This document shows, in pieces, positions 5,206-58,625 of a stretch of DNA of 64,000 nucleotides. A model generated the notes under the pieces. That model was given only the letters and a program-made list of their open reading frames with translations, had not been told where the DNA came from and did not search any database. The number at the start of each line of letters is the position of its first letter. Position 1 is the first letter of the stretch. Origin of the DNA: Azolla caroliniana (taxonomy: Eukaryota; Plantae; Polypodiophyta); the NCBI GenBank assembly GCA_043228905.1, contig JBHGNT010000005.1:12214001-12278000 (forward strand). The letters run 5' to 3'. Position numbers and translations under genes: made by a program.

Positions 5206-5462
5206 ATAAGTATAATGATGAGAATATAATTTGTACAATAGATTATCCTAATGGTTTATACTTTGTATTTGATATATACAAGGCTATAGATTTGTTCCTC
5301 ACATATGGAACTCGATATAATATTTGAATTTGTTTTTATATCGTGAAACAATTACTTCACGACAAGATTGCAACCCCGTTAGCCACAGAAATGTAGACGA
5401 TACCCACTCTACTTGCCATCTCGAAATATGCATAAGTTGATGTTTAAGAGGAGTGGTCGTGA

Positions 5463-5466
<4 letters not shown>

Positions 5467-5493
<27 letters not shown>
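5467..5493. repeat. (GT)n microsatellite
   Basis: Direct reading. Confidence 0.95.
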
Positions 5494-11005: not shown

Positions 11006-12157
11006 ATGGCCACTATTAGCACTGAAGAATATCAATCTGTTTTCTCGAAATTTCAATGCTTGAAAGAGAAGCTCCATGCTTTGGAACAAGAAAACCAACG
11101 GTTGCTGGGGGATCTTCAGCAAATCTCCTTAGAAAAGCAACAAACGCAACAACAACATGGGGAACTTGCGTTAGGCGTGCAACAACTTGAAGCAACCATC
11201 GTAGCGAAGCAACAACAAGGGCCCGGAACACAAGGGATTCATAAAGAACCAAAGATTGGCCTTCCCACGAAGTTCGATGGAACGCGATCGCAGTTTAGAG
11301 GGTTCCTTAACCAGGTACGATTAGTTATTCAAATGCATCCTTCCCGATATCCCATCGATGCATCATGAGTGGGTTTAGTAGGCACTTTGTTAAGTGGCTC
11401 AGCGTTGGCATGGTTCGCTCCACTATTAGAAAAGGAATCTCTGTTACTCAACAATTTTGAAGAGTTTCTAGGTGAGTTTAAAGCATGTTTCGGAGATACT
11501 GACAGCATCAGGACCGCAATCAACAAAATTCGGCGATTACGCCAAGGTGACTGTCCAACCTCCGCATACGCTGCAGATTTTCGCCTACTCGCCGCTGATA
11601 TCCCTTGGGATGATCAAGCCTTGATGGAGCAATTCCATTATGGTTTACGCAACGACGTCAAGGATTTACTCTTGACCTTCCCCGAAGAGCCAAAGTCCTT
11701 AACAGAAGCAATCAGTCGCGCGGTGAGATGTGACAACCGCCTCTTTGAGCGACGTTCGGAACGACAGCGACAGATGCCGAGGGCAAGATCAAAGCCCACC
11801 TACGCCTCAATGGTAGCAAGACCTTTTCTGAGGGAGTCATATAATGCGCCTCAAGGGAATACTCTGACTCCGATGGAGATTGACACTACACGTCGTCGAG
11901 GGCCATTATCTGAAGAAGAAAAGCAGTGACGCCGTACAAATCGACTATGTCTTTACTGCGGTGGACCAGGACATATTGCAATAAATTGCCCCCATAGGCC
12001 AAGAAGATAGGTAAACCAAATAGTCGCTAGTTCTAATTGTACTAAACCCGAGCCTATTTCAGTAGGGATATCTGATAGTCCTAATAGTACTAATAGCCCA
12101 GATCTAGTGAACAGATTTGATATCCTTAGTCAATTAGAAGAAGAGTTAAACGACTAA
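11006..12157 (+). pseudogene. gag of Tcn1-type element (premature stops)
   Basis: EPKIGLPTKFDGTRSQFRGFLNQ, PMEID, CLYCGGPGHIAINC knuckle; in-frame stops at 11366, 11927 and ~12008. Confidence 0.9.
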
Positions 12158-15100
12158 GTCCAGCCAAAATAGGAGTCGTTTGGTTGGACAGCCCTAGATC
12201 TGTGCAGCCCATTAGTGGTTCCATTCCCTCTAAGCAAGTTAGTGATGTGTTCGTAGCCCAAGTAATAGTTAGTACTAAAAGTACCCCTCCAGTACATGTC
12301 CTAGCACTCCTAGATTCTGGAGCTAACTCTTGCTTTATGGATAAGAAATTTGCTCAAGCTCATAAGATATCCCTAAGAAAACTCCAGTGTCCAGCCTCTG
12401 TAGTAGTCATTGATGGACATCCCATTGCTTCCGGAAATATCATAGAAGAGTCAGAGCCCATTAATATTGTCCTAGATAACTTAGCATGTCTAGTATCATT
12501 TAATATTATTAGTATCCCAGAACATCCCATAGTTTTAGGATTATCGTGGTTCGAGTTACATAACCCAGACATAGATTGGAGAACAAGAGAAATACGGTGT
12601 CGACAAACCCAAGGGTCAACTCAGAAGATGGCAACCATTTCGCTACGTCAGTTGCGTAAAGAAGGGCACAAGGAGGAAATGTTCCTCTTTGCAATATCAG
12701 TAAACCCCTCCAACACCATTAAAGAAGAATCCACCGTTCAACTTCCCGAGAAGTATTGTCATTACGCCGATGTGTTCAATAAAGTACAAGCCAACAAACT
12801 TCCTCATCATCGACCGTACGATTGCCCCATTGATTTACAACCGGGAAAAGAGCCGTCATGGGGACCAATCTACAATTTGTCACCAACCGAGCTGGAAGTC
12901 CTTCGGGCCTATATAGAGGAGAATTTGGAAAATGGTTTCATTCGGCATTCGAAATCTCCAGTCGGCGCAACCATTTTCTTCGTCAAGAAAAAGGATGGAT
13001 CGCTTCGTCTCGTTGTAGATTACCGTGGCCTGAATAAGGTTACAATCAGGAATAGGTATGCTCTTCCCATTATCTCAAGTCTTTTAGAACGGATCAATGG
13101 TGCCAGGTTCTTCACGAAGATCGACTTACGGGGGGGAGCATATAACCTCGTACGGATCCGACCAGGAGACGAATGGAAAACCGCGTTTCGCACCAGATAT
13201 GGGCACTTCGAGTATACGGTCATGCCATTCAGCCTCACTAATGCGCCGACAGTCTTCCAACACATGGCTAATGATATATTCCGAGATCTATTGGATGATT
13301 GTTTGATCATCTATTTGGATGATCTACTGGTTTATTCGAAGACCCAAGAAGAACATGATTCTCATGTACTATTAGTACTAAAACGACTTCGAGAACATGG
13401 TATGTATGCAAAGCTGGAAAAATGTAGTTTCGGGTGCAACCAAGTGGAATTTCTCGGCTACATCATTTCGTCAGAAGACATCTCCATGGACCCAGCTAAG
13501 GTCAAAACGGTGGTAGAATGGCAGACTTCGCGTTCGGTGCGGGATGTGCAATGCTTCCTAGGCTTTGCCAATTTTTATCGGAAGTTCATACAAGATTACT
13601 CAAAGATCGTTCTACCTCTCACACAACTTACCAGGAAGGGACAACCGTTCATCTGGTCTGAAGAAACGGACATGGCTTTCGAGAGTCTTAAAAAGGCATT
13701 TACATCGGCTCCAATTCTAGCTCATGTCGATCTGGAAAAACCATTCATTATCGAAGCTGACGCATCGGATTTTGCATTGGGGAGCATTTTGTCACAACAG
13801 GGGAATGATGAGAAGCTACATCCTGTGGCTTTTCACTCACGCAAGTTTGACGCCGCCGAAATCAACTACGAAATTCATGATAAGGAGTTATTGGCAATAG
13901 TGGATTCTTTTATGCAATGGAGGCATTTTCTAGAGGGATCCTCTCATCCGGTCACCGTATTTAGTGACCACAAGAACCTTGCCTACTTTCAGGATGCTCG
14001 TGTGTTGAATCGACGTCAAGCTCGGTGGGCCCACTTCCTCACGCGTTTCGACTTCAAAATTACATATCGTCCGGGGAAGCACCAAGGGAAGGCAAATGCA
14101 TTATCATGGCGTTTGTATCTAGCACCCTATCCTGGCGAGCCAACTTTTGATAACAAAAAACAAGTCATCTTGGGACCGGCACGACTACAAGCAACACAGA
14201 TCTTTGACATGCCCATGGATTCCCGCGTTATCAATACCATACGCGAAGACTTGAAGACAGATGCGTTCGCCCAAGCTATACTAGCACAAATTGATCCCTC
14301 TCGAGTGTCGTGTTCACAGTCGCAACCACCAGGTACGGACTATCGGCAATTCAAATACCATGATGGATTACTCTTCTTTAAAGAACTTTTGTATGTTCCT
14401 AATGGTTCTTGCCGCCTTCAAGTAGTACAAAACTGTCATGACACATATACAGCTGGGCATTTTGGTAGTACTAAAACATTACATTTAGTACAACGATCAT
14501 TCTGGTGGCCCTATATGCGACAATTTGTCGAGGATTTTGTTCGGACTTGTGATACATGCTGCAAAGCGAAAATGCCAAGGCATCATCCATATGGTTTATT
14601 AGAACCATTACCAATTCCAAGCAAGCCGTGGCAATCCATTGCTCTAGACTTCATCACAGATCTTCCAGTCTCTAAGGGGTTCAATGTGATTATAACGGTG
14701 GTCGATCGATATACGAAGATGGCTCATTTATTGCCATGTACTAAGGAGATCTCTAGTGAAGACACTGCCGAAATTGTCATGTGTGAAGTATGTCGGCATC
14801 ATGGACTTCCCGATAGTATCATCAGCGACCGTGGCCCCTAGTTCATGTCAAAATTCTGGAAGCACCTTTTTTACATGCTCAAGGTCACTTGTAACCTCTC
14901 CTCCGGCTACCACCCACAAACCGACGGCCAAACCGAACGAACCAATCAAACGTTGGAGTAGTATCTGCGGTGCTTTCTCAGTTATCATCAGGATGATTGG
15001 GCAGATATTCTCCACTTTGCCGAATTTGCCTATAACAACTCTATCCACGCATCCACTAAAGTTACACCATTTTATGCTTATACGGGATGTCACCCCTGAT

Positions 15101-15744
15101 GGTGTGTACTTGAAACCCCAGAGGTGTCCACAAATCCTTGTGCAGAGGATCATTTGGAGAGGTTACGCAAGATACAAGCGGATTTATCTACTCATCTCCA
15201 ACAAGCTCAACAAACACACAAGGTTTATGCAGACCGTCATCAACTCCCATCTAGTTTTAACATTGGAGAACGGGTATGGCTACCCCGACGACACATCAAG
15301 ACTACTCGCCCATGCGAGAAGTTGGATTATCGGCGATTAGGTCCTTTCCGTATTATAGGAAAGATTAATGATGTCGCTTTTCGTCTTGATCTACGTCCAC
15401 AACTTCAGATACATCCAGTGTTTCAGAGTTCTCTCCTCAAACCCTATCAAGAGAGCACCATCCCAGGACGTATTACACAGCCTCCACCCCCGATCGAGCT
15501 TGAAAATGGACTTGAGTACGAGGTTGCCACCATCCTTGATTCCAAGCTTGTTCGCAACAAGCTCTACTATCTAGTCGATTGGCTAGGATATAGTCCCAAC
15601 GAGCGTACTTGGGAACCGATAGAGAATGTCACCAATGCTCGTGCGCTTCTTGAAGACTTCCATCGTCAATATCCAGACAAACCGGGTCCTCAATCCAAAA
15701 CGACTCGTTACACTTGTCGTAGGGGGGATAGTGTCATGATATGA
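12145..15744 (+). pseudogene. pol (PR-RT-RH-IN-chromodomain) of Tcn1-type element, -1 frame relative to gag
   Basis: ALLDSGANSCF, IYLDDLL, IEADASDF, CHDTYTAGHFG, ALDFITDLP, LGPF, chromodomain YEVATILDSK...YLVDWLGY...TWEP; a few premature stops. Confidence 0.92.
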
Positions 15745-17536: not shown

Positions 17537-17615
17537 ATGGTGAGAATTCTTTTCTCCTCTGCTAAAGCTGTCACTGATGCCATCCATCATTTCTCTTACG
17601 GACTAACATAACATC

Positions 17616-17673
<58 letters not shown>

Positions 17674-19356
17674 TAAATATCCGTTTCTTCAGCCTTTCCG
17701 GCGCTATGTAGAGATCGGATCGGACGTGTGGCCATGGTGAATTATGGACGTAGCTATGGAAAGCTCGTCGTCATCGTCGATGTTGTCGACCAAAATAGGG
17801 TAATGCCATATTTCTGTCTTCGCAAATATCTATTTGCTCTTTGAGCGAATATGTTTTTCTGCGATTTCATGGAGCTCCTCGGCTATACATTTGTATATTA
17901 TTTCAGAGCCCCAAATTTGTTCGTCTCTTTTAAGTCTCGACTTTGTTCCTTCTTTCAAGACGATTTTTTTTAATCGGAGTCTTCGGAAACTAAATGTTCT
18001 TGTTCTTTCACCCTACATACAATTCAGTGTTTTGGCTCTTTTAAAAACATACTACCTACATACCTTTGTTTCAAAGACACACCTACGTATTTGTAACGGG
18101 ATTTGACGTGTCCTTCTGCTTTCTCGTCTAGCAGAAAGTGGATTGTTCTTTGGGCATATCTTTATCTCGTTTAGCAATTTCTATTTGCATTTCTTGTTAT
18201 CGGGCACTAGTTGATTCCCCTGATCTGGTGCGTGCAGCCATGAATTTCAAGAAACTCTCCTTGACAGATATAAAAGTTGAGATACCAAGAATGCCAAAGA
18301 AAAAGCAGCTTGCTGATGCAGTCGAAGCCGCAGGTACCGATTTACACTATAAATGGCTCAATGATGTCGGTCGACATACACCCTCATAGCCTTTTAATCA
18401 TCTTTTAATTTTATTTATGCTTTTCCTCTTCACATGCGTTATCTCATACCTACATCACACGGTGTCTTGTTAACGAATTTGGATTTGTGAGTAGAATTCA
18501 GTAGGTGGACCTTTTCTCAGTCCTTGCCTGGAGAATAAGCGTGTGAAGAGCTCTGTTTTGTCCACGTGTCATACGAACTCAGTTTTGCCTGGAGAATAAT
18601 AAGCGTGTTTTTAATTTCTTACCTGCTAAACTGACAGTCTATTCCACGAACTCCGTTAGTTATAGTAGCCATTGCTTACAAAGTTTGCGTTGTGTTAAAA
18701 AATCATGTGTTAGCCTGGTAAACTAGTTTCAGGAATTTAGTAATGTTGCCAGATAACGTGCTAGTCGTATGAATGACCTCAGTTTTTATGCATAATCTAG
18801 GTAGGTAAGTTTTATTTGAAACTTGAGTTTTCTCGTAATCAAGGTGCTTAACTTGCTAATGAGTGGATGATATGTATATACATATATATACATATATGTT
18901 GATGTAGGGTCAATGATTGTTGCATTATTTTCTGGTTAAATTCATTTTATAGGTAGACTTTGATCTATGACATGATTGTACAAGTCAGTGTCTTCTTCTT
19001 TAATCATTTGCTAACCTATTTCTCCAGTCTAAGCGCATTTGTATGTGAGTGCTCCTACTTAGTATTTTTGAGAAACTATATGCATCATCTGGGGACTCAT
19101 GTTCTGAGTAGATGTCAGTGGAAAGTGGGCTAACAACTCATGGGGAAGGAAGCTTATTGTTCAGAAAAAAAGAGCTTCTTTGAATGATTTTGATCGTTTC
19201 AAGGTCATGGTTGCTAGAATCAAGGCAAGTATCTCTGCATTTTCTTCGAAATTTTTGGATTTACTTCAAAACTATCTGCTAAACAGCAATCACATTTTGC
19301 AGAGAAGTTCACTTGTGAAGAAGGAGCTAGCTAAATTGAGAAAGGAAAAAGCTTAA
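17537..19356 (+). pseudogene. RPL14: 60S ribosomal protein L14 (eL14), five-exon gene, apparently disabled
   Basis: Exons 17537-17539 (ATG), 17693-17799, 18204-18333, 19112-19224, 19303-19356 give [18 protein letters not shown]...DVVDQNRALVDSP...[52 protein letters not shown] 5-bp duplication (ATCGG x2, 17714-17723) frameshifts exon 2, the exon 3 acceptor reads CGG instead of CAG (18201-18203), and the last intron has a GC donor. Confidence 0.92.
17620..17666. repeat. (CT)n microsatellite in RPL14 intron 1
   Basis: Direct reading. Confidence 0.95.
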
Positions 19357-19646
19357 TTTGTTTACAGACTCCGAAATTTTGCCCTTTTAATGTTAGAAAC
19401 AATTTGTTAATGAGAGTTTTGTTAAGCGAATTAGATTTATCAGCCAATTTATATGGAGATCTTATACTTGAGTAGCGTTTAATCAATTCCTCGATTTTTC
19501 TTCTGTATTTTGGAGGTACATTTTCTAGTTATGTTTATTTAACAGAGAGTATACTTTTAGTATTCCTATTGCTGAACGATATTGTATTTATTTATTATAT
19601 CTTTGATAATATTATATTTGATTATATATCCTCTTCTCTCCATGTT

Positions 19647-19868
19647 AGGAGATAGATATGATAGGTGGGGTTGGTTTCTTTATCAGGAACTCAGGCTATG
19701 GTTTGTTCATAATAAGCCATAAACTGGTGATCTGTGATTCTTATAACCCTGAATATCCCACAGGTTTTCTGTGGGGTGCCATTTCATTTATCTCCTTAAA
19801 TAAATGTGGTTTCATAGTACAAGTTCTTCACGTCACTGAAGAGGTTGTCTCCAAATACCATTACATTT
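19647..19868 (+). ncRNA. Candidate box H/ACA snoRNA, copy 1 (guide for LSU rRNA helix 69 pseudouridine)
   Basis: Branched 5' domain, H box AAATAA (19798-19803), 3' hairpin with pocket TTCATAGT (19811-19818) / CTCC (19849-19852) complementary to rRNA GGAG-UA-ACUAUGA, ACA at 19863-19865 exactly 14 nt from the pocket apex. Confidence 0.78.
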
Positions 19869-20031
19869 TAGTAGTAAAAATCGTTATGTTGGACAATTGT
19901 AACAATGGGGAAGTAATTGGAGGACAAGTAATACCATTAGTATTGGTGACTGATTTAATTTTCATATCCTATGTTCATTCAATATTGATATGAAGTCTTA
20001 CAGGTTTGGATCTAGTATCCTAAAGTAACCC

Positions 20032-20187
20032 GAGAGTATGGAAAAAACAATAAAACATTTGATTGGTCATTGACTGGATGCAGATGGTGTCTCGTATTTA
20101 GTTGTGGTCAGAGAGTATGGAAAAAACAATAAAACATTTGATTGGTCATTGATTGGATGCAGATTGTGTCTCGTATTTATTTGTGGT
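20032..20187. repeat. 79-bp tandem duplication
   Basis: gagagtatggaaaaaacaataaaacatttgattgg at 20032 and 20111. Confidence 0.9.
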
Positions 20188-20188
20188 A

Positions 20189-20409
20189 GGGAGCCATGTG
20201 TGCCAGGTGGGGTTTTTTCTGAGCATAGGAGATATGAGGCCGGTCATTATTGAAAAGATAATGGCCTCATGGCCTATGCCGCATAACCCTGAATACCTCA
20301 CAGGTTCTCTGTTGGGTGCCTTATCATGTGACTCCGTAATGAAATGTGGTTTCATAGTACAAGTTCTTCCATCTCTCTGAAGAGGTTGTCTCCAAACTCC
20401 ACTACACTA
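20189..20409 (+). ncRNA. Candidate box H/ACA snoRNA, copy 2 (diverged paralog)
   Basis: Same pocket (20351-20358 / 20390-20393), ACA at 20404-20406 again 14 nt away; stems differ in sequence but still pair; the H-box position is non-canonical (AATGAA). Confidence 0.68.
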
Positions 20410-21899
20410 ATTTGGGATAGTACTTACAGTTCCTTTAACATTTCTGTAATCTGGGATAGTATATTCAGACAATTGTTGTACAAGCTTATCTTTATGCCTT
20501 TTAGAAGAATGTGATTTATCTGGAGTTTGTTTTCAACATTCAATTAGATTTTGAGAAGTGAAAATGCTTCAGACAATTCAATTAGCCAACAGAGACATTG
20601 GAAACTCAACAAATACGGTGGAGATTCTTAATTGAAGTGAAGAATGCTAATAAAAATCAACAGAAACATTGGAGTGTCAACTCATACCTTGAACTGGAAA
20701 GTATAATTTGAGATACAGGCAGTTTCATAGGCATTTGAAAGTGAATTGGTATTGCCAAAGCTTAGTTAGTTACTTACGTGAAGGAGTGTGGCAATTTTTC
20801 CATTACTTGTATTTATTTCAGTCTTTCTTTTGAAGTAGAAATCTCTTCTTATTTTCCTACAATTAATATATGCATTGTGATGGCTTGCTACAATGACCAC
20901 AACTACATCCCTATCTATGGCAGCGTCACCCATCCTCACACTTGTTACAATTCATGTCAGATTGGCTCACCACTCAATTGTTTTAACTCGTTGGCACCTC
21001 CACTTAGTGGACGATTGGCATGACCCCCAGCTTGCTAGGGCTTATGAGAAACAAAGTGTACATTCATTGGAACCTTGTTCACTATTTCCTCCCTTGGTGT
21101 TAGCCTTTGCTTGATCACCTCGACCTGAGGTTGCGTTCAACACCCTTCTTCCATCAGTCAAATTTTAAACCTAGACATCCATATACATGCCAGGTAGTCT
21201 ATTGTTTCTTGATATTATTCCTACCCTTCCAAATTTCTCATTGCAAATGAAAACAGTCTAGATGAGATAACAATTAAACCAGTAAAAAAAGTATAGCTCA
21301 ACAGGGAAGACCCTTGGTTTAGAAGGTATAGGGAACAAAAGGGAGAAAGATTATCTACAATGCAATAACGCAAAAGATAAGATGCTTCTTGAGAAGAGTA
21401 CAAAAAGGAAGGGCCCTAGAGATAGATTATTGCTAGGGATTAATGCATTTTTGTGGAATAGTAAATCAAAAGGGGGCAAGAAGGACGGACGCCTATAATA
21501 ATTCTTGATAGTAAGGTTGTCTAAGTCAACTTGTGGCAAGGAAGTAGATAGGGTCTTGTGTGGAGTTGATCAAACAATAAAAAGCAGCAAGAGAAGATTT
21601 GTGCACTACTCAAGTTTAGAGAAAGATGAACAAGATGAATACAAACATAGTTACACAGGGAGAGAGGGATTTACTCAAAGAGACTCAACGTTTCTATTAC
21701 CACTGAACCATACTTTACAAGAACAGTTACCTACTTAAATAGTTAGGTTAATTGTGTGCACACTAGAGATACAAGTTTGGGCATAGTTGGCCTTTTATGC
21801 CAACAAACTCCTCTATAAAAGGACTACTTTGTTTTACATATAATGGGGTTATCTCCCTTGTCAGCTTAAATTTTACATCTTAGTTTTAAACTATAGTTT

Positions 21900-28067: not shown

Positions 28068-31000
28068 CACAGACACGCAGAAGTGAGAAGGAGAGATATA
28101 GAACGCAACACTTAATTACAATGACAAAAGATTACAAACTCCAACGGTTACAACCGTCAAGGCGGCGATGGGCCCGACTCGGGGACCCTACTCACGCACA
28201 CAGGCGGGAAACACTGGACCCAGAGAAAGCAGAAGGAAAGGCCTCTGCTGGCAGCGCACGGGCTACCCACGAAGCAGAGGCGTCGAACTCCCAAGCACCC
28301 ACACAGAATGACGGTCGGAGGAGGAGAGAGAGATCCGCCCTCGGTCCTGCAACACTTTCTCCTCCTTAACGCGTGATCCTTCCTTCTCTTCCTTCCCTCC
28401 CCTCCTTAAATAGTCCCCCAAAAAAAGGGGTGCCCCCTTTCCTATCAAATTGCTTTATTCCTTGTCCCTTCTGACAGAGATGCGCACAATCCCTCCTGAT
28501 AAATGTGCACTACTTAGTATTTACATCAGTTGATCCATTTATTAATCAACATCAAAATATCAAGTCAGGTGTCTATCCGTGTAAGAGCCGGTTCATGCGC
28601 CTTTTTGCCCGAATCCGCCTATGGCCGGTTTTCTTCACGACATCCACCCCCACCAAACCGCGCATCCACCGGCATGCGCCAGAGACGGGTTGATACCGAA
28701 GAAAACCGGCTTCAATCGGCGCTCTCTGATTCTTTGTCGGGCCCGAACTGATCGTCGTCGTCGCTCTCATCCACGCCCTCTGGGTCCGGCTCATCCTCGA
28801 ACCGCTTCTTGAACGCTTTGATCCGCTTCCCGGCCACCGGTACCGCTAGCCGTGTCCCGTCAAGTTCCGCGAGGTGGTACGTGCCGTTGTCGTTCGCGCT
28901 CATCACCGTGTAGGGCCCGAACCATCTCCTCGCGAACTTTCACACCGCCTTGTGCTGATTGTCGAGGCTGCTGTCGTACACCAAGACCCAGTCGCCTTCC
29001 TCGATCTTCTTTGGTCGCAACTGGTGCGTCTGGTTGAACCAGGTCTTGTTCCGTTCCCTTGCTGCCCGCAACTTTTCCTTTGCCTGTTTCATGTCCTCCG
29101 GCCTCCGCTCGAGTTGTCGAATCCGCGCCGCCAGCAACTCCTCCCGGCTCATTTCGTCCTTCCAATCTACCGCCGCCCATGAAGAAACCGTCCGTTCCAC
29201 CCGCATGATCGGCTTCTGTCCGTACATAAGCTCTGCCGGCATAAACCCTGTCACCGAACTGTGCGTAGTTCGGTCCGCCCATAGTGCGTAAGGAAGGAGC
29301 CGCGGCCAATTCCTGACCTGCCCTCCGCATGCACGCACCAACGCCTTTATGATCGGACCATGCCCACGTTCTACCTTACCGTTCGCCTCCGGATTGTACG
29401 CCGTAGTGAGGGAGAGTTTGACGCCTAGCCGGTCGAACAACTCCTCAGCTTCCCGCACATCCAGCTCCCCCGGTCGGCTACGATCCTCCCGACGCACCTG
29501 TACCGACACACTACCTCTTCGATCAGGAACCGGCATACCTCCGCGGTTGTCTTGTTCTGCAGTGCACGACCTTCCATCTGGTTTGTTAAGTCTTCCCGTG
29601 CAAGCACCAGGTATCGCATCTGGCCTACTCCCATCGGCATCATCACCAAGTCCACCATCCACTTGAAATGGACTGTAGGCGGGTAGGTCGGGTGTAGCTC
29701 GTCCCGGTGTCGGACTGTGGAGTGCATCTGACAGCTTTCGCAAGTCGTTACGAACCGATGCACGTCTTGGTACAGCCCCGACCACTAGTACTTCTCCTTT
29801 AGTTTCTCGAACGTGGCCCACGTTCCGCGGTGCCCGGCCCAAGGACTCTCGTGAAACGCAGCCAGAAGTTCCTCCTGTTCTTCTTTCTTTGTCACTACTC
29901 GGAGCGGGATGCCGTTTCTCTTCTTCGGGTGCCTCCATATGCACTTGTCCTGCAGGAAGAACCGGTACGCCTTCTTCCGTACCCGGCTCGCCTCTTCTCT
30001 CATCCATGCTGCGTCTGGCGTCATCGTCCGTAGGAACCTCCTGATTTGGAGCCACTCCCCGTCGTACCTGCTTTCGTCAAATTCGTTAAGCGCCGGAGTG
30101 TCCCTTTCCCTCGTTGCTACATTAGCCGACCCGAAGAAGTCCTCACCAACTTCTTCGTCATCCGAAACCATGTCGTCTTCGTCGTTGAACCTTGCTCTCG
30201 AAAGCATGTCAGCCATGGCGTTGTCCTTTTCGGAGATGTGCCGTATCTCCGGGTTCAGGGAATTAATGTATGCTATCCACCGGAGCATTGCTAGGTCCGG
30301 CGTCGCGCATCCGAAAACCATGCCGAGTATCGGCAGGCAGTCCGTCTCGATGATCACCTCCGTCCCGATTAGATAGTCCTCATCGGCTTTGACTGCCGAA
30401 ACGATACCCCAAAGCTCGCGCTTAACTTGGGCGTATCCTTGCTGCCGTTCGCTCAATACCTTTGCCCCGAACCGGATCGGGAATCGTATGCCGTCCTTGT
30501 CCTCCTAACTGATTACCCACCCGATCCCGGTCGGGCTGGTGTCCACTGTCACGCAAATGGGGACATCCTTGCCGTAAACTGCTTTACGGAGAGCCGGTGC
30601 TACCGTAAGCGCCTCCTATAGTCTCCGTACCGACTTCGTGTGCTCCGTCCTCCACTCAAAACTACGCCCCTTTTTCAATAGTCCATAGAGGGGTTCGGCG
30701 ACATGTGCGTAGTGCGGGATCGAGATGTGGTAGAATGCGCATGCTCCCAAGAATCTGCGGACCTCCGTGACCGACCCGCAATCATTCCTCATCGCGGAGA
30801 TAGCCTCTACCTTTGCCGGAGACGGTCTCCTACCATAAGGCCCGCACAAGTGTCCGACCACCAAGATCTCCGACTGCCCGAACGCCGATTTTTCTCCGGA
30901 GAAGGTGAGCCATGCGCTTTCGAGCCTCTGCAGCACCTTCTCACAGTCGTTGATGTGGTTCACAACGAACCTCCGGCATCCATCTGGCCCGACAGTCTCG

Positions 31001-34000
31001 TCCGCGTCATCCACCGAACACCCCTTTATCGGGATATTGTCCATGAATGGCATAGTGATGTCCAGGATGAAGTCCCTCAACACCTTGTTCATTGCGTTCA
31101 CCATATGCGCCACCGAATTCGTCCCGCCTTGTGGTAGGGTACACATTCGTACTAGGCCGAGAGGGGTTTGCATCATCGTGATATCCCTGCTCTCGATTGC
31201 TAGCTGGAACTGGTTGTACCCCGAGTATAAGTCATCGACCGAATAGATCGACCTTCTAGCGAAGGCCTCCGCGAACTCGTCTATGGTCGGTCCGATTCCT
31301 ATGTTACGGATGGTCACCTTGTTGACCGGTTGTAGGTCCTGAATGAAGTGCAACGTGCCGTTCTTCTTTGGCACCGTAAACCTCCGGTTCGAATACGGGG
31401 CACTCGACGGTTCGAGGATGCCCATCTCCACCCTCTGGTTTAGAAGCTCCATTAACTTTGGGATGTGAGCTCTCGGCACCGGAATTGGTTTGAGATTCCA
31501 CGATACATGCGGTACCGTGAAGATCACCATCGGTTCGACGATCGTCGGGTCCACACACCCGATCTCCTCCGGCGAGAACGCAAAGGCTTTCCCATGCCTT
31601 CTGAGCATTCTCCGAAACCTGTCCTCCTCCGCCGGCAGTAGGAAGCCACCCCCACCGACCTTGAGCTCCCGTAGTGTTATGTCGGTGAACCGGTGCCCTA
31701 TGCCAGCCGAATTCCGTAAAATTGGGTCTGACTCGACCCCTTTTATCCACTCTTCGCTGCCCTCTGGCAAGGGTGCCGCGACCGGCCTCACCTTCCGGCC
31801 TACAATCTTGTACTTTGTATCCACGTGGGCCGTCCGATCCGACCCGATCCTTTCCCCGAAGTCCGCGATGACTTCATACATTCCCATCGAACTAACCGGA
31901 ACGGTCCGGTCTTCTCTAAGGTCTTCACCAATCACCTTTTGCAATTCGCCCAAGGTGTCGTCAAAAGAGACCGCCTCCATGGCGCTGCTGATCTCTTCAT
32001 CGGGGGAGAGGACTTCGCATCCCCTGAGCCACTCCTCCGCTCGCTTCCTTTCCTGGCCGCTGACGCTGGCTATAGTACAACCTTCGTTTTCGGAAAACCA
32101 AAACTTCCTACCTACTGTACATGTGTGGGGTTCTTTTGGTTCGTCCGCACTACCACGGCCCCACGCCTTGATAGCCCTCTCTAAAAATCCCCTCGGTTGT
32201 TGCCGCCGAGGGTCTCGCGATTCCTCTCATGGTTCGGAAGTACGATCATGAATTGGACGGAATGCCGACCATCCTGGCTCTTGACGCGTGCATACGCCGA
32301 ACCATTGTCCAACACCTTCGTCTCCATGCGTGCTGCCGTAATGTATGGTTCGCCAAGAATCACTGGGTGCGAGGATCTTTCCTGCACGAAGAAATATTGA
32401 TCTATCTCGATGTCACCGACCTTTACGCGTATATTCGGGCACGCACCATGTAGCTCCTCCGTAGCACGCGTCGCCGCGCGTATCTTCCACCCATGCTTGG
32501 TGTTGATCGGCCATTTACCCCTCTTGTAGAAATCCATGGACATAAGGTTGATTTCGGATCCATGGTCTACCAAGGCCACCACCGGTTTCGGAACGTCACC
32601 GATCCGCACAAGGGTTTCCGTAGTTGCCCTGGCCTAATGCGGCTTCGCGTAGTGGCTTTCCGCCAACTGGTCTTCCAGGGCCACGTCTTCTAAGTGCGTA
32701 GTCCGCACCTCCACCGGCTTCTCCGGTTCTGGCTTTGTCGAGAGCCTCTTCTGCTTCACCAAGTCTACAATAGAGTCGTGGAATTCCCTCTTGGAGATTC
32801 CCAGCACCTCACCCAACGACAACTCCACTTTACTGTCGAGGATACGTTCCTACAGGACCTTTCGTAGGTCTGTGGTCCTTTCGATTTCGGTGCTCAACCG
32901 AAACCCCGCCTGCTTCTTCCCGTCCGGCGCGCTTGGGTTGCCGGCACGGGTCGGTTTTGGTCCGAACCGGGTCTCATACCTCTGCGGGGGACCGACCCCT
33001 CCGGCCTTTCCTGCCTGTTTGTCCTCCACTAGAACCTCATAGTTTTGGCAAGCGGCTTCTACGAAGCCCGTTTTCTCTTCGACCGGATTGTCCCAACCGG
33101 TGACCTCCTGGACCCTCTGCTCCGCGCGGTCCGCCTCTTCCTTCTTCAGTCGAACTCCGGAGAGGCCTTCTAGCACTAGCGGCCAGAATCCGGAGTCCTT
33201 CGCCTTCTGGGTCTCATTACCCCCGACCCGAATTCCCGCCGACACTGAGTAGTTATTGCCTTCAACGTGCCGTGCCGCGGCCTCTTCTATCAACCTCTTC
33301 ATTCCGTCGCGCCCCGTATTTAGTTCTAGGGCTCTCCGGGTCTCGCTCGCGTGCACCCGCCCGTTCCAGAGGTACACCACGTTGGCCCTGAGTGCGTCGG
33401 CGAAATCTGCGCAATCCTTCCGAATGTGATCGATCGCGTCACACCACATGCACCGCTGCCCAGCCGGTGGCCTCTGGTCGCGAGGTTGTTCCCTGCTGTC
33501 TCTCCAGGCCTGTGCGTCCTTCGATGCCGACCCCGACTCTAGCCAGATTCGGGTCTCTTCCTTCCTACCGGACGGCACCGATACTGGCTCCTCGAGCCTC
33601 CTCCTTGGGACCGGCCCTGACCCCGACGAGCTTCCGTCGCTCCAATCGCGCCGTTTGTCGAAACGGCTGCAGACCCGTTTTACCACGGCCCAGTCTGCCG
33701 TGAGCCCTTCGTCCGTTTCCAATAGGGGACCCACCTTTCCCCTGTCGAGCACGTCCACGAACTTGACAAACAACAGTACTCGACTTGTTTCGAGCATCAT
33801 CCGGTCCAGCGTCGATAGCCGCACGAACTGTCTTTCATACTCCTGGAAGAGCACCGACATGTTCCTCCCTTTTCCGGGGCTTTCCACCCACGGCATGAAG
33901 TCCCGCCTCGACAGCCGAAGCGAGTCGTCAAACCCGTACTTCTCAAGGAGCCGCAACTCGAACTCCTCCCAAGTCTGGCATCCGGCCAGCACCTCGAGCA

Positions 34001-34353
34001 CCTCCGCGTGGATGCCCGACGTCACCACCTGAGGGAATCCGGACAGCCGCCTGTCCACCGGGATATCCCTCATGATCATTTCGGCCTGGTAAGCCTCCAA
34101 ATAACTTGTGGCGTCTTTCCCTCCGAACCGGCCTATAGAGCCGACGATCAATTCAATGGCTCTGTCGAGGGTACCTGTCCCCTCACGAGCGCTTACCAGC
34201 CGGTCGACGGCTACCACCATTGCCTCTGCTAGCTCCAATCCCCTCATCTTTCGACTCCTTTGCCGCCCTTTCACGTTGGGTTCACCAAATATGTCGTGTT
34301 GTTACGTGCGTGCATGTAGAAGGGGGCGGGACCACTGGGGTCTTGGACCGAGG

Positions 34354-47036: not shown

Positions 47037-50000
47037 TTATATATGTACATGTATGCAAGTATATAATTCAAAACAACTTATATATACATACCGGGATTTC
47101 ATTTCCAAAAGAAAATCGTTGAAAACTTTACAATTGCTTTCATCTAACAGATAGTTATCACATTTTGCATTATATGTGAGGTTCGCTAATCCAATAATTG
47201 ACTCAAAGTCAACCATTTTAATATTTGTCAAATCATATGCAAATAATCTACTCCCCTTAATCTTCCTATACCAACCAAGTTGTAATTGAACATCTTCAAG
47301 TCTATCCATCAAGTCAATTCCTCTCTTATACTCCACAAATTTATTTCCAATCTTTCTTCGCATCCTTTATACTCGTCCTAAGTACCAAACAACATTTTTA
47401 TTTGATATTCCTTTTCTTTTCGGTCTTGTTGAATTAACATCTTCTTAAGTAAAGAATACAACACAATCTGAACCAATCCCAATTAGGTTCCCATTTCCAT
47501 TTAGGAAATCATTTGCATTCTCACATGAGTAGAAGACCTCTTCTCTTACACGTGTGAGTCTATCCTTTGACAATGTTGGATTACCATTTAGATGACTCAC
47601 ACGTGTCAATTTAAATATAATCTTATCATCCACTTGAACAAATGAAGAGACTTTAGTGTTCACATTGTTGTCATCTAATATAGCATCCAATTCATGGCGA
47701 ATGTCACAAAATGTGAATATCAAGGTTTGAACTTGTGACCTTCAAACAATGGTCTTACACTTCAACCATTGCACCAACTCATTTTTATTAATAAATACAT
47801 TTTCATATTATTATTATTCAAGAACTCTAGAGCACTAGACACATTAAATGACCGCCAAATGACATGCACCCTGTACGCCAAGTGGCGCACAACATGTATG
47901 CCAAATGGCGATCATGCACATTCTGATGTACAATATATAAGTTGAAGATCTACTTAGTGTTGAACCATTCCGGTTCAACACCAGTCTTCAGCAACCTTGT
48001 AATCTCGGTTTCCGGTAATAGAAATTCTTGTATTTTTGTATTGTAAACGTCTTCTCGTTTCTTATTATCTTCTTTTCTTCCAAATCGACCTTGTCTTCGA
48101 AGCTTGGGTCACGACAGTTTGAACTAGAATCCCACTTTTTTTTTCTCGAGTATCTAGTGAAGTTTTTCCGCCACAATGGAGACCGTCAGTAAACAAGAGT
48201 ATATGCATATTCTCTCAGAACTTGACCTCCTAACAACAAAATTTGTTGCATTGGAACAAGAGAATCATAAACTTCTTGGCGACTTGCAACAAGTGAGCGT
48301 TGAAAAGGCACAACAACATGAGGAACTCTCGAAACGTGTCCAACAACTTGAAGCTATTGTGTTATCTCTTCGACAACAAGCTTCAAACTCTCAAAGTTTG
48401 TTGAACGAACCCAAAATTAGTTTACCAACAAAATTTGATGGTACAAGGTCTCAATTCCGAGGATTCTTAAATCAGGTACGCCTTATAATTCATATGCATC
48501 CCAATCGATATCCAACTGACGCAACTCGAGTGGGGTTAGTTGGAACATTATTGATAGGAACCGCACTAGCATGGTTTGCACCATTGCTAGAGAAGAAATC
48601 CCCAATACTAGAAAACTTTGATACCTTTATCAACAAATTCCAAGCTAGTTTTGGTGATACTGATAGTGCAAGAACAACAATAAACAAGATACGTAGGTTG
48701 CGCCAAGGAGATCGGCCAGCCTCAGCTTACACAACTGATTTTCGCCTACTTGCTTGTGATATCCCTTATGATGAAACAGTGATGATGGACTTGTTTCGGC
48801 ATGGTTTGCGTAATGATGTTAAAGACTTGCTCTTAACATTTCATGATGAACCCAAATCACTGCCAGAAGCTATTAGTCGTGCAGTTCGATATGACAATCG
48901 TTTATTCGAAAGACGTTCTAAGCGCCAACAAACGTCGACACGCCTTAGATCTGAGCAAACATATGCCTCAGCATTAGCCTCACCACCTTTAGGACCAGTG
49001 CAAGTTCCTAATCCTAATTCTTTTAATGGACCTACTCCAATGGAGATTGATGCAACACGTCAACATATAGCAATACATTGTCCACATCGACCAAAGAGAC
49101 AATTAAATCAATTAAGTGCTATTGAGAATTTTGATTCATGCTCTCCAGTCAAAGCCAATAAACCAAGAACTCTTTTCAACAACCCTCAATCCAATAGTTT
49201 TGATGTTCTAAGCCAACTAGATGAGCTGTTAAACAAGTAAGTCCAGCCAAAATCGGAGCCATTTGGTTGGACCAACCAAAGCATGTAGAACTTGTTCCGA
49301 GCTTAGGTTCCATTTCATCGAACCGAGTCAGTGAAGTTTTCACAGCGCAAGTGCAACTCAGCACATCAAGATGTCATCAAGTTCTTGCATTTGCGCTCTT
49401 GGATTCAGGAGCCAACTCATGTTTCATGGATCGGGATTTTGCCACAACACAAGAAATTCTACTCTATAAGCTTCCTCGTCCAGCATCAGTAGCAGTAATT
49501 GATGGACGTTCTATTGCATCATGAGATATTATTGAAGAATCAGAGCCTATTTGTGTAGTTCTTGGTAATTTAGCTACTGTAATATCTTTTAATATCATAA
49601 GCAGTCCCGAACATCCAATTGTTCTTGGGTTGCCGTGGTTTGAACTTCATAATCCAAAGATTGATTCGAAGAAGCGGGAAATCATAGACTCATGAGACAA
49701 CAATTTAAGGCTCATCACCACATCAACCTCAAAGCTAACACCAAGACATATATCAACTATCTCTCTCAAAAGATTACATAAAGAAGCTACAATAGAAGAT
49801 ATGTTTGTGTTTGCAGTGGTCATAACCCCATTCTCAAACCCACAAGATTTAGAGGTCCATTTGCCATCAAAGTATCAAGAATTTTCCGATGTGTTTGATA
49901 AGGTAAAGGCCACAACACTTCTTGATCATCGCCCATATGATTGTCCCATTGATTTGCATGCTAAGAAGGAACCACCATGGGGACCAATTTATAACCTTTC

Positions 50001-53000
50001 GCCGTGAGAAGTGAAAGTTCTTCGAGAATATATTGATGAGAATCTTGCAAATGGCTTTATTCGGCATTCCCGATCTCTTGCTGGCGCTCCTTTTTTTTTT
50101 GTTAAGAAGAAAGATGGCTCTTTACGTTTGGTCGTAGACTATCGAGGCTTGAACAAGGTTATGATTCGAAATCGATATGCTCTACCATTGATTCCAAATC
50201 TCTTGGAATCTCTCAATGGGGCCAAATACTTCACAAGGCTAGACTTACGAGGAGCTTACAACCTTGTTCGTATTCGACCTGGTGATGAATGGAAAACTGC
50301 TTTTCGCACACGATATGGTCACTTTGAGTACACAGTAATGCCATTTGGGCTTACAAATTCTCCAACAGTTTTCCAACATATGGCAAATGATATCTTTCGA
50401 GATTTCCTCGATATCTTCACGATAATTTACTTGGATGACATACTAATCTACTCAAAGACACAAGAGGAGCATAATAATCATGTTCGACAAGTTCTACAAC
50501 GATTACGGGAATTTGGTCTTTATGCCAAACTAGAGAAGTGTTGCTTTGACCGCAATCAAGTCGAGTTTCTAGGGTATATGGTCTCTCCAGAAGGTATTTT
50601 TATGGATCCAAAGAAAGTACAAACAATTCTAGATTGGAAGACACCAAGCTCAGTTCGTGATCTGCAATGTTTCTTGGGATTTGCGAATTTCTACCGCAAG
50701 TTCATCAAGAGTTACTCAAAAGTTGTTTTGCCCCTCACGGAACTAACACAGAAGAACCGACCATTTGTATGGACATCAAGCGCAGCTGATGCATTTGATA
50801 GCTTGAAGCAAGCATTTACATCTGCTCCCATTTTGGTCCACGTTAACCTTAAAAAGCCGTTTATCATAGAAGCGGATGCATCTGATTTTGCACTAGGAAG
50901 TGTTCTATCACAAGTAGTGGATGATGAGAAATTACATCCAGTTGCATTTCATTCAAGAAAGTTTGAGCCTATAGAAATCAATTATGAAATCCATGACAAA
51001 GAATTGTTGGCAATTGTTGATTCTTTCGAACAATGGCGTCACTTCTTGGAAGGTTCTCCCCACCAAATTATTGTTTACAACGATCATAAAAACCTCACAT
51101 ACTTTCAAAATGCTCGAGTTCTAAATCGACGACAAGCTCGGTGGGCACAATTTCTAACACGGTTCAATTTTGTGATAACATATCGACCAGGAACACAACA
51201 AGGTAAAGTTGATGCCTTATCAAGACGCTCTTATTTTGCACCAAAACCGGGGGACCCAACTTACGATAATCAAGAACAAGTCCTTTTGAGCCCTAGTCGT
51301 CTACAATTAATGGTGACAAATGTTGCTGAGACAACTTTGGATTCAAAATTTCTTGATTCTATTCGCTCGAGCATTGGTTCAGATGATTTTGCACAAGATA
51401 TTTTAGACCACATTGTTCCAGATCGTGCTTCTTGTTCACGCTCCAAGTTTTCTCGCATGGATTATGGGAACTTCAGTTGGCATGATGGGTTGCTTTTTCG
51501 AAACAACCGTACTTATATTCTCGATGGACCTTTTCAACTTGAAGTCTTGCATCACTGCCAAGATTCACCGCTAGCTGGACATTTCGGAGTTTTGAAAACA
51601 TTAGAGCTAGTTACCCGAAACTATTGGTGGCCTTAGGTTCGTCAATTTGTCATAGACTATGTTTCTACTTGTGATGTATGTTGTCGATCAAAGATGCCTC
51701 GACATCGGCCATATGGTTTGTTGCACCCATTGCCCATTCCAAATGGTCCGTGGAAATCCATTTCTATCGATTTCATCACAGATCTCCCATCTTCCCAAGG
51801 CTATGATGCAATTCTTACAGTGGTGGATCACTTTACGAAAATGGCACATTTTCTTCCATGTAGAAAAACTTTTACTAGTCAAGAATTGACAAGTCTTGTT
51901 ATGCGAGAAGTTTTCAAGCACCATGGCCTTCCAGATGAAATCATTAGTGATCGTGGACCACAATTTATTGCAAAGTTTTGGACACACTTACTTGAGAGCC
52001 TTGGAATTTCTCGTAAACTATCTGCAAGCTACCATCCTCAAACCGATGGGCAAACGGAACACACAAATCAAACATTAGAACAATATATCCGTTGCTTTAT
52101 CAACTATCAACATTGGATCATTTGGCAGAATTTGCTTACAATAATTCAATCCATTCTTCTACGGGATTCACTCCGTTCTTTGCAAACACAAGATATCATC
52201 CTCGATGGATGATGCTCGAATGTCCAAAAGTCTCAAAAAATCCCACGGTCAAAGATCGTGTAGAAAAACTCAAAGAAATTCAAACCAACCTTTCTCACAA
52301 TTTGCTTCATGCTCAAGCCAAGTACAAGAAGGTGGCAGATAAACATCGATTAGATTCTTCACTTGAAGACCCTAAGTTTAAAGTTGGTGATCGTGTCTGG
52401 TTATTGCGTCGTAATGTGAAAACTACTCGACCAAGTGCCAAATTGGATTTCCAACATCTAGGTCCATTTGTAATCTTTCATCAAGTCAATGATGTTGCAT
52501 TTCGTCTGAACCTACCTTCACATATGCGTCTTCATCCAGTATTTCATGTTTCATTATTAGAACCATGGACATCAAGTTCTATTCCAAATCGGGTTATCCC
52601 ACCACCACCTCCGGTTCAACTTGCTGAAGGACCTGAATATGAAGTAGAAGCTATTTTAGACTCTAAGGTCATCCGCAATAAGTTATATTATCTAGTAGAT
52701 TGGCTGGGATACACGCCTGCGGATCAGACATGGGAACCTGCAATGAACGAGTTTCATCTTCGTTATCCCCATAAACCAAAACCTAGTTCATGCATTGCGA
52801 CTCATGGAACTCGTCGTCAAAGGAGGGGATGATGTCACAAAATGTGAATATCACTTCAACCATTGCACCAACTCATTTTCATTAATAAATACATTTTCAT
52901 ATTATTATTATTCAAGAACTCTAGAGCACTAGACACATTAAATGACCGCCAAATGGCATGCACCCTGTACGCCAAGTGGCGCACAACATGTATACCAAAT

Positions 53001-57900: not shown

Positions 57901-58035
57901 GTGATGTGTGATATATGAATGTAGCCTGTAGGTATATGTGCATGTATATGATATGCATGTGTGATGTGTGTTATGTTTGTGTGTGTATGTATGTACATAT
58001 TGTATTGTATTGTATGTATGGAATGTGTGTATGTG

Positions 58036-58082
<47 letters not shown>

Positions 58083-58625
58083 TTTTATTTTTTGTGTGTT
58101 TGGTTTGTATATTTGCATTTGTATATAATTGTGTGTAAAATAATAAATGTGTGTAATATGTAATATATAAAATATGTTTGTAAGGAAGTGTATGTATAAA
58201 CGTAATATGTAATTTTTATGTATGTATGTCAATATATATGGCCAATTCTAATATGTATGTAATATGTAATGCATGCATGTATGTGTATGTACATATTTAC
58301 ATATGGTAATATATATTTGTACATATGTAATATATAGAATATGTTTGTAAGGAAGTGTATGTATAAATGTAATATGTAATTTTTATGTATGTATGTATTA
58401 TCTATATATGTATATCAATATATATGGCCAATTCTAATATGTATGTAGTATGTAATGCATGCATGTATGTGTATGTACATATTTACATATGGTAATATAT
58501 ATTTATGTTTAGTCAACATGCATGTATAAATGAGTGTAATGTATGTATGTATATACATATTCATGGATGTAATGTTTGAATGTAGGTATATATGGATGCA
58601 TGCATGTATATGTATGTATGTCATT
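54785..58625. repeat. ~3.8-kb (TA/TG/TATG) low-complexity satellite with internal block duplications
   Basis: Direct reading; repeated blocks e.g. ~55670-55870 vs ~55975-56220 and ~58150-58325 vs ~58325-58505; GC-rich island at 55250-55420. Confidence 0.92.

What the first reader, a model, noticed from the sequence alone, without database searches (positions are those of the whole stretch)
19647..20409. Tandem pair of large, branched H/ACA snoRNA candidates targeting rRNA helix 69
Seen: two ~220-nt paralogs whose stems diverge in sequence but still pair (aggagatagat/atttatctcct vs ggagccatgtg/catgtgactcc; ggggtt/aaccct closing unrelated long hairpins; cccacag/ctgtggg), with G-U pairs favouring the plus strand. 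The 3' pocket TTCATAGT / CTCC is invariant and lies 14 nt from ACA in both. Established: H/ACA pockets sit 14-16 nt from ACA, and the conserved LSU helix 69 sequence is GGGAGUAACUAUGAC, whose first U corresponds to E. coli pseudouridine 1911 (assigned, from memory, to ACA23/SNORA23 in human). The three-way-junction 5' domain is atypical and may have an additional function.
Basis: partly seen in the sequence, partly recalled or inferred. Interest (0 to 1): 0.75.

Follow-up and report, generated by a model that had tools for sequence, protein, structure and literature searches.

The report
Twin fern snoR92 ribosome-guide RNAs
Two side-by-side copies of a roughly 220-base RNA gene in what is likely a fern are relatives of the known Arabidopsis guide RNA snoR92 and are predicted to direct a chemical edit (pseudouridine) in the ribosome's helix 69; this is an ordinary kind of gene, but it shows that snoR92 likely has a conserved branched front half missing from its published sequence.

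Summary
Two paralogs (19647-19868, 20189-20409, + strand) fold into a three-way-junction 5' domain plus a 3' hairpin. The 3' pocket pairs 4+7 bases around the first U of LSU helix 69, 14 nt from ACA. They are orthologs of Arabidopsis snoR92, the listed guide of 25S U2244 (human U3737, SNORA23). A model built from fern copies alone finds the Arabidopsis locus end to end (58 bits, E 3e-14; unrelated pattern hits at most 9.9 bits). That site is pseudouridylated in Arabidopsis (fraction 0.49-0.81, published BID-seq). What is added: snoR92 is listed as a 98-nt 3' fragment in two eudicots only, but the Arabidopsis locus folds the same branched 5' domain, and it weakly matches Rfam SNORA23 end to end (14 bits; cut-off 45). 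No shared rRNA target was found for the 5' domain. Copy 2 lacks a canonical H box. The pair lies about 170 nt past the poly(A) site of an RPL14 copy that is doubly broken yet spliced. Mature RNA ends, Cbf5 binding and fern pseudouridine are untested. Verdict: new members of a known family; modest interest.

The parts
19647..19868 (+). snoR92 paralog 1, predicted H/ACA snoRNA (222 nt; ends inferred from P1 start and ACA+3)
19647..19796 (+). Copy 1 branched 5' domain: P1 19648-58/19785-95, junction helix 19663-66/19778-81, P2 19667-72/19745-50 closing a variable long hairpin, linker GAATA 19751-55, P3 19756-76 with GTTTT loop
19798..19803 (+). Copy 1 H box AAATAA (fits ANANNA)
19811..19852 (+). 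Copy 1 guide pocket: 5' strand 19811-19818, upper stem 19819-19848, 3' strand CTCC 19849-19852
19863..19865 (+). Copy 1 ACA box, 14 nt after the upper stem
20189..20409 (+). snoR92 paralog 2 (221 nt), same fold, different P2 hairpin
   Evidence: similarity to a distant relative stops at 20409 (X17)
20338..20343 (+). Copy 2 hinge at the H-box position, AATGAA: does not fit ANANNA; same in the relative L002
20351..20393 (+). Copy 2 guide pocket: 5' strand 20351-20358, 3' strand CTCC 20390-20393
20404..20406 (+). Copy 2 ACA box
20032..20187 (+). 79-bp tandem duplication in the spacer (2 copies, 96%); single in the relative L002
17537..19479 (+). Upstream RPL14 (eL14) gene copy, exons 17537-39, 17693-17799, 18238-18333, 19112-19224, 19303-19356, poly(A) near 19479; broken by a 5-nt duplication in exon 2 and a lost exon-3 acceptor

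Best explanation
The two repeats are tandem genes, in what is likely a fern, for the plant H/ACA snoRNA snoR92, predicted to guide pseudouridylation of the first uridine of LSU rRNA helix 69 (Arabidopsis U2244, human U3737). Shown: sequence, fold, pocket complementarity, orthology to the Arabidopsis locus, and conservation in a relative. Inferred from H/ACA biology: both copies are cut from one longer precursor and trimmed; Cbf5, Nop10, Nhp2 and Gar1 assemble on ACA (and on the H box of copy 1); CUCC pairs with GGAG upstream of the target and UCAUAGU with ACUAUGA downstream, leaving UA unpaired 14 nt from ACA, and Cbf5 isomerises the U. The 5' domain most likely acts as a non-guiding scaffold: an H-box hairpin whose tip is branched and whose pocket has degenerated, needed for RNP assembly and stability. 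The precursor likely comes from read-through of the upstream RPL14 promoter (about 55%) rather than from its own promoter (about 45%).
For: Pocket: 4+7 Watson-Crick pairs at helix 69 in all three guides tested; next best site scores 6.5; 13 of 2000 shuffled guides reach 11 with WC pairs only, 60 of 2000 with G-U allowed. Orthology: of 16 metagenome loci found with the pocket pattern, L006 and L013 carry, by eye, the published 98-nt Arabidopsis snoR92. A covariance model from 4 fern copies scores them 58.0 bits, E 3.4e-14, end to end, while the 12 non-plant pattern hits reach at most 9.9 bits. All 5 sequences fold independently into the same three-way junction (Arabidopsis z -3.02). 14 of 45 pairs change on both sides, 92% of cells pair, 0 of 500 shuffles reach this, slid controls give 1-5 pairs. 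Selection: 293 of 300 aligned core positions match the relative L002, against 1486 of 1702 in introns and flanks (p 2e-9). Target: snoR92 is the listed guide of U2244; BID-seq fraction 0.49-0.81 in 9 Arabidopsis tissues, and 0.89-0.95 in the rice row mapped to it. Transcription: run X8 (RNA by guess; spliced joints, A-tail, introns almost empty) has contigs over both copies that run past the predicted ends. Lineage: intact RPL14 of L002 is 119 of 133 identical to Adiantum, 105 of 128 to Ceratopteris, 104 of 133 or less to 5 angiosperms.
Against: Copy 2 fails the H-box consensus, and its lower 3' stem is only 4 bp. No Rfam family reaches its cut-off, and none of relevance appears at E up to 10 for the fern copies. 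The covariation count rests on 5 sequences, in effect 3 lineages, in an alignment fitted to the structure. The Arabidopsis locus was picked by the pocket pattern, which inflates its score; the 5' domain alone finds the right place as top hit but only at E 0.022 in 281 kb, with a chance hit at 0.03. The rRNA used for target scans is a non-plant eukaryote (L039), not the fern. The fern call is not clean: a liverwort (109 of 133) is as close as Ceratopteris. Contigs give no ends, strand or level, and no silent control stretch was laid on X8.
Confidence: 0.92

Rival explanations
1. Only copy 1 is a working snoRNA; copy 2, with AATGAA at the H-box position, is a decaying duplicate or an unstable RNA.
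For: H-box consensus not met in the window or in L002; weaker folding (z -2.35); mismatches in P1, P3 and the lower 3' stem.
Against: Its 3' core is 123 of 125 identical to the relative while flanks are 76-89%; similarity to a distant relative ends exactly at ACA+3; its P2 hairpin differs in sequence yet still folds; X8 has a contig over it.
Confidence: 0.12
2. The RNAs guide helix 69, but the branched 5' domain has its own job: a second guide, an RNA chaperone for pre-rRNA, or a protein-binding module.
For: Invariant letters cluster in the junction and P3 (CTGAA, AGGTT.TCT, GGGTGCC) across fern and Arabidopsis. P3 with its GUUUU loop aligns to a GUUUU-capped hairpin of the Rfam SNORA23 consensus. 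The junction helix sits 15-16 nt from the H box, the canonical pocket distance (read). Human SNORA23 has a second listed target, U4331.
Against: The internal loop at the pocket position is small and not conserved; in 5 registers no U in 90 kb of 17 rDNA-bearing loci was predicted for all five guides. The best shared antisense match (SSU, score 8.6) is reached by 2 of 40 column shuffles and would need P3 to melt. The Arabidopsis equivalent of U4331 (U2773) is assigned to snoR93 and was not detected by BID-seq.
Confidence: 0.25
3. The pair is a repeat fragment or chance local duplication with no RNA function.
For: The window is rich in retrotransposon ORFs and local duplications occur beside the pair; genome-wide copy number is untested.
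Against: Orthology to an expressed Arabidopsis snoRNA, purifying selection, same position behind RPL14 in a relative, two copies only in the window.
Confidence: 0.01

Closest known systems
Arabidopsis snoR92 (H/ACA; snOPY; predicted guide of 25S U2244)
   Same: Same pocket, same 14-nt spacing, near-identical 3' end, and, at the genomic locus L006, the same branched 5' domain with compensatory changes in P1 and P3.
   Different: Published entry is a 98-nt 3' fragment that lacks the 5' pocket strand and the 5' domain. Arabidopsis has one copy, listed as monocistronic, with site II, telo-box and TATA motifs upstream, short P2 and long 3' upper stem; the fern has two tandem copies behind RPL14, long P2 and short 3' stem.
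Vertebrate SNORA23 / ACA23 (Rfam RF00319; guide of 28S U3737 and U4331; intron of IPO7)
   Same: Same pocket letters and flanks, 14 nt from ACA (human sequence read by eye; Rfam consensus); similar length (189 nt); a GUUUU-capped hairpin before the H-proximal stem. Arabidopsis snoR92 matches the model end to end.
   Different: Score 14.2 bits (E 0.98) against a cut-off of 45; fern copies give no hit. Rfam draws the 5' half unbranched; a first short hairpin is visible only by eye. No support for the second target in plants.
U19 / snoR79 / SNORA74 / yeast snR191
   Same: Long H/ACA RNAs (snoR79 is 194-199 nt) that guide helix 69.
   Different: They guide U2248 and U2250, 4 and 6 nt downstream; the pocket here fits only U2244.

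Membership tests
Box H/ACA snoRNA | Hairpin-hinge-hairpin-tail fold | tested here: met
   All 5 sequences fold so, with a branched 5' hairpin; covariation
Box H/ACA snoRNA | H box ANANNA in the hinge, copy 1 and Arabidopsis | tested here: met
   AAATAA at 19798-19803; ATACCA in L006
Box H/ACA snoRNA | H box ANANNA in the hinge, copy 2 | tested here: not met
   AATGAA at 20338-20343, same in L002; copy 2 is filed as a paralog that likely works like one, not as a strict member
Box H/ACA snoRNA | ACA box 3 nt from the mature 3' end | tested here: inconclusive
   ACA present in all 5 sequences; mature ends not observable with contigs; similarity to X17 stops at ACA+3 of copy 2
Box H/ACA snoRNA | Bipartite pocket leaving UN unpaired, 14-16 nt from the box | tested here: met
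   4+7 pairs, 14 nt, 3' hairpin; no shared target for the 5' domain
Box H/ACA snoRNA | Cbf5/Nop10/Nhp2/Gar1 binding, nucleolar accumulation, guided modification | not testable with these tools
   Target is modified in Arabidopsis; no fern data
Plant snoR92 | Sequence and structure homology to Arabidopsis snoR92 | tested here: met
   58.0 bits, E 3.4e-14, full model length; locus matches the published fragment by eye
Plant snoR92 | Predicted target 25S U2244 | tested here: met
   Same site predicted for both fern copies and Arabidopsis; modified-site spacing 0, +4, +6, +10, +12 fits the helix 69 uridines
Rfam SNORA23 (RF00319) | Gathering score 45 bits | tested here: not met
   No hit for fern copies; Arabidopsis 14.2 bits. 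Likely homolog, not filed as a member
Rfam SNORA23 (RF00319) | Second target U4331 | tested here: inconclusive
   No shared 5' target, but on non-plant rRNA; the plant site is assigned to snoR93
U19 / snoR79 / SNORA74 | Pockets for U2248 and U2250 | tested here: not met
   Only U2244 is predicted; no Rfam hit
U17 / snR30 processing snoRNA | m1/m2 motifs pairing with 18S rRNA (recalled) | not tested
   Motifs not searched; no Rfam hit

The most novel reading that the evidence does not exclude
snoR92 and SNORA23 are one ancient family, kept in plants and vertebrates and lost in budding yeast, whose branched 5' domain with a GUUUU-capped hairpin is a functional module of its own (a protein dock or a chaperone that helps open helix 69 in the pre-60S particle). 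In this fern lineage the pair is released by read-through of an RPL14 copy that has lost coding capacity and survives as a non-coding carrier, like an animal SNHG host gene but with the cargo behind the poly(A) site instead of in an intron.
Probability: 0.2. Interest if true: 0.6.

Novelty: new member of a known kind. Interest (0 to 1): 0.3.

Why it matters
It completes and extends a poorly annotated guide family. The published snoR92 is a half molecule recorded in 2 of 25 plant and algal genomes and has no Rfam model; these copies give the likely full structure, carry the family to a probable fern, and tie it to SNORA23. The single Arabidopsis copy makes the role of this helix 69 pseudouridine, absent in yeast, and of the branched domain directly testable by knockout and domain swap. 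It is not a new class of RNA.

Tried and rejected
Rfam gathering scan of the window: 0 hits. E-value scans of the fern copies: chance hits only. Helix 69 pattern in viral contigs: 0. No plant rDNA was identified among the 33 rDNA-bearing loci, so L039 (complete SSU, 5.8S, LSU of another eukaryote) served as target; that all 33 carry the target 13-mer is by construction and is no evidence. One search had fern pocket coordinates one base off; repeated. Exon borders were partly off; corrected. Search for a 5'-domain target: none shared. C/D-box reading: CTGA is conserved in the junction but no conserved C box. Plant promoter motifs (recalled patterns) in the 289 nt between RPL14 and copy 1: no telo-box, no site II, one TATATA at 19622 that L002 lacks; a telo-like box lies upstream of RPL14 in both. 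No listed holder is on record as RNA. None of 4 RNA-guess or unlabelled runs covers 19506-19622 while 3 of 3 DNA runs do; the stretch is 27% GC, so this does not decide between read-through and a separate promoter. Earlier findings of the scan: 3 look-ups, nothing. Paper searches: snoR92 in main texts 0; fern + snoRNA terms 0; one search listed 20 of 63, all unrelated; PMC6984369 has no SNORA23 mention.

Full report
Observation. The two copies lie at 19647-19868 and 20189-20409 on the plus strand, with 87-nt and 33-nt blocks at 86-88% identity (alignment). Both fold into a closed 5' domain with a three-way junction, a hinge, a 3' hairpin and an ACA tail; copy 1 beats all 200 shuffles (z -5.25), copy 2 all but 6 (z -2.35). 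Minus-strand folds are weaker in energy but, for copy 2, not in z. Rfam 15 has no match at gathering level in the window and only chance matches at E up to 10. A model of the pair finds 2 copies in 64 kb.

Target. Scanned against a complete eukaryotic rRNA set (L039; not a plant), the 3' pocket of each copy pairs 4 bases upstream and 7 downstream of one uridine, the first U of helix 69, leaving UA unpaired, 14 nt from ACA. The next best site scores 6.5 against 11. Of 2000 shuffled guides, 13 reach 11 with Watson-Crick pairs only and 60 with G-U allowed. In PMC8351944 (passages and Suppl. Table 2 rows) this position is Arabidopsis U2244, predicted guide snoR92, human U3737, no yeast counterpart; U2248 and U2250 belong to snoR79 and U19. 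PMC6466398 (table passage) gives U3737 and U4331 to SNORA23. PMC12273003 (passages and source-data rows) measures the site at 0.49-0.81 in 9 Arabidopsis tissues; neighbouring sites at +4, +6, +10 and +12 fit the helix 69 uridines, and the rice row mapped to it reads 0.89-0.95. U2773, the counterpart of human U4331, was not detected there.

Family. PMC5122169 (supplement rows; several files were cut when stored) lists snoR92 in 2 of 25 genomes, Arabidopsis and Citrus, as about 98 nt. PMC7464842 (Table S1 row and passages) also gives 98 nt, monocistronic, with reads in nuclear fractions. One metagenome scan with a gapped pocket pattern returned 16 loci. L006 and L013 hold the published Arabidopsis fragment, by eye letter for letter, and show that it starts inside the 3' hairpin, just after the 5' pocket strand. 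L002 and L008 are a relative of the window's plant with both copies. The other 12 look like chance. A covariance model from the 4 fern copies scores L006 and L013 at 58.0 bits, E 3.4e-14, over the full model; the 12 others reach at most 9.9 (L002 left out because it trained the model). The Arabidopsis sequence folds on its own into the same junction. On the 5-row fitted alignment 14 of 45 pairs change on both sides, including 5 in P1 and 2 in P3; 0 of 500 shuffles match this and slid controls give 1-5 (RNAalifold recovers the junction). This leans towards the model and rests on about 3 independent lineages. The 5' domain alone finds the right place in L006 as best hit, but only at E 0.022. Full-length Arabidopsis snoR92 matches Rfam SNORA23 end to end at 14.2 bits, E 0.98 over 4227 families, the only H/ACA family among 5 hits; the 3' hairpin aligns almost letter for letter around the pocket, and P3 falls on a GUUUU-capped hairpin of the consensus. 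The human sequence in PMC4914119 (one supplement row; two files not searched) has the same pocket 14 nt from ACA. Homology to SNORA23 is likely (about 75%), but convergence on one target cannot be excluded. I did not see the original snoR92 description or the snOPY, RNAcentral and Araport records, so a full-length annotation may exist.

Selection and context. Against L002, 293 of 300 aligned core positions are identical, against 1486 of 1702 in introns, gap and spacer (indels ignored). The P2 hairpins vary more (83-93%) yet still fold. The upstream gene is RPL14. The intact L002 copy (133 codons) is closest to Adiantum among 11 named proteins tried (119 of 133), so the plant is probably a fern. 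The window's copy has a 5-nt duplication in exon 2 (stop at codon 17) and CAG to CGG at the exon-3 acceptor; spliced contigs without differences carry the duplication and use a cryptic acceptor 34 nt downstream, while a second, closely related copy in runs X4, X12 and X13 lacks both lesions. An A-tail marks 19479 in X8. X8 also has contigs at 19664-19955, 20135-20426 and 20604-20787, which run past the predicted mature ends and suggest a precursor. X8 is RNA by guess only, and contigs show presence, not ends or strand. Arabidopsis snoR92 has site II, telo-box and TATA motifs upstream; the fern gap has neither site II nor telo-box, while the RPL14 promoter has a telo-like box (motifs recalled). 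Read-through is thus slightly favoured, untested. A plant snoRNA in a 3' UTR has precedent (snoR164, PMC2875012 passage).

Mechanism. Standard H/ACA guiding by the 3' hairpin is inferred with high confidence. The 5' domain keeps the H-box geometry, but its loop at the pocket position is small and unconserved, and no target is shared by the five guides; a scaffold role is most likely, with a separate function at about 25%. Copy 2 fails ANANNA and also the ANANA and ANANNNA variants named in PMC12218528 (passage), yet is conserved, so it likely works through its ACA hairpin.

Verdict. Real, correctly interpreted, and a new member of a known kind. The gain is the probable full-length structure of snoR92, its extension to a fern and a link to SNORA23. 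Interest 0.3.

Noticed in passing
window 17537-19479: RPL14 copy with two coding lesions (5-nt duplication near 17713; exon-3 acceptor lost at 18202, cryptic AG at 18236-37) that is still spliced and polyadenylated; contigs of a lesion-free close copy and of a more distant RPL14 paralog are in the same runs.
   Followed up: partly
window 19225-19302 and L002: The last RPL14 intron is GC-AG in both plants; in the window it is 78 nt and open in frame.
   Followed up: partly
L006 2894-3106: Arabidopsis snoR92 appears to be about 213 nt, twice the 98 nt listed, with site II, TATA and telo-box motifs upstream.
   Followed up: yes
window 20032-20187: Recent 79-bp tandem duplication in the spacer between the two snoRNA copies; contigs break there.
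   Followed up: partly
window 19745-19770 and 20285-20310: The conserved P2 3' strand and P3 are each complementary, largely through G-U pairs, to two neighbouring stretches near SSU positions 368 and 387 of L039; not beyond shuffles (2 of 40).
   Followed up: partly
window 12130-15744, 28940-34301, 48161-52832: Ty3/gypsy-type gag and pol ORFs (12130-14841, 48161-51636) and a further reverse-transcriptase ORF on the minus strand (30616-32226).
   Followed up: no
window 55000-59000: Low-GC stretch (25-32%) with strong positive GC skew (up to 0.6), probably a satellite or simple repeat.
   Followed up: no
L002 reverse strand, about 5360-5484: Long near-perfect inverted repeat at the contig end (hairpin or assembly artefact).
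   Followed up: no
L017-L049: Many prokaryotic genome assemblies carry eukaryotic rDNA contigs (for example L039, a full SSU-5.8S-LSU unit in a bacterial MAG).
   Followed up: no
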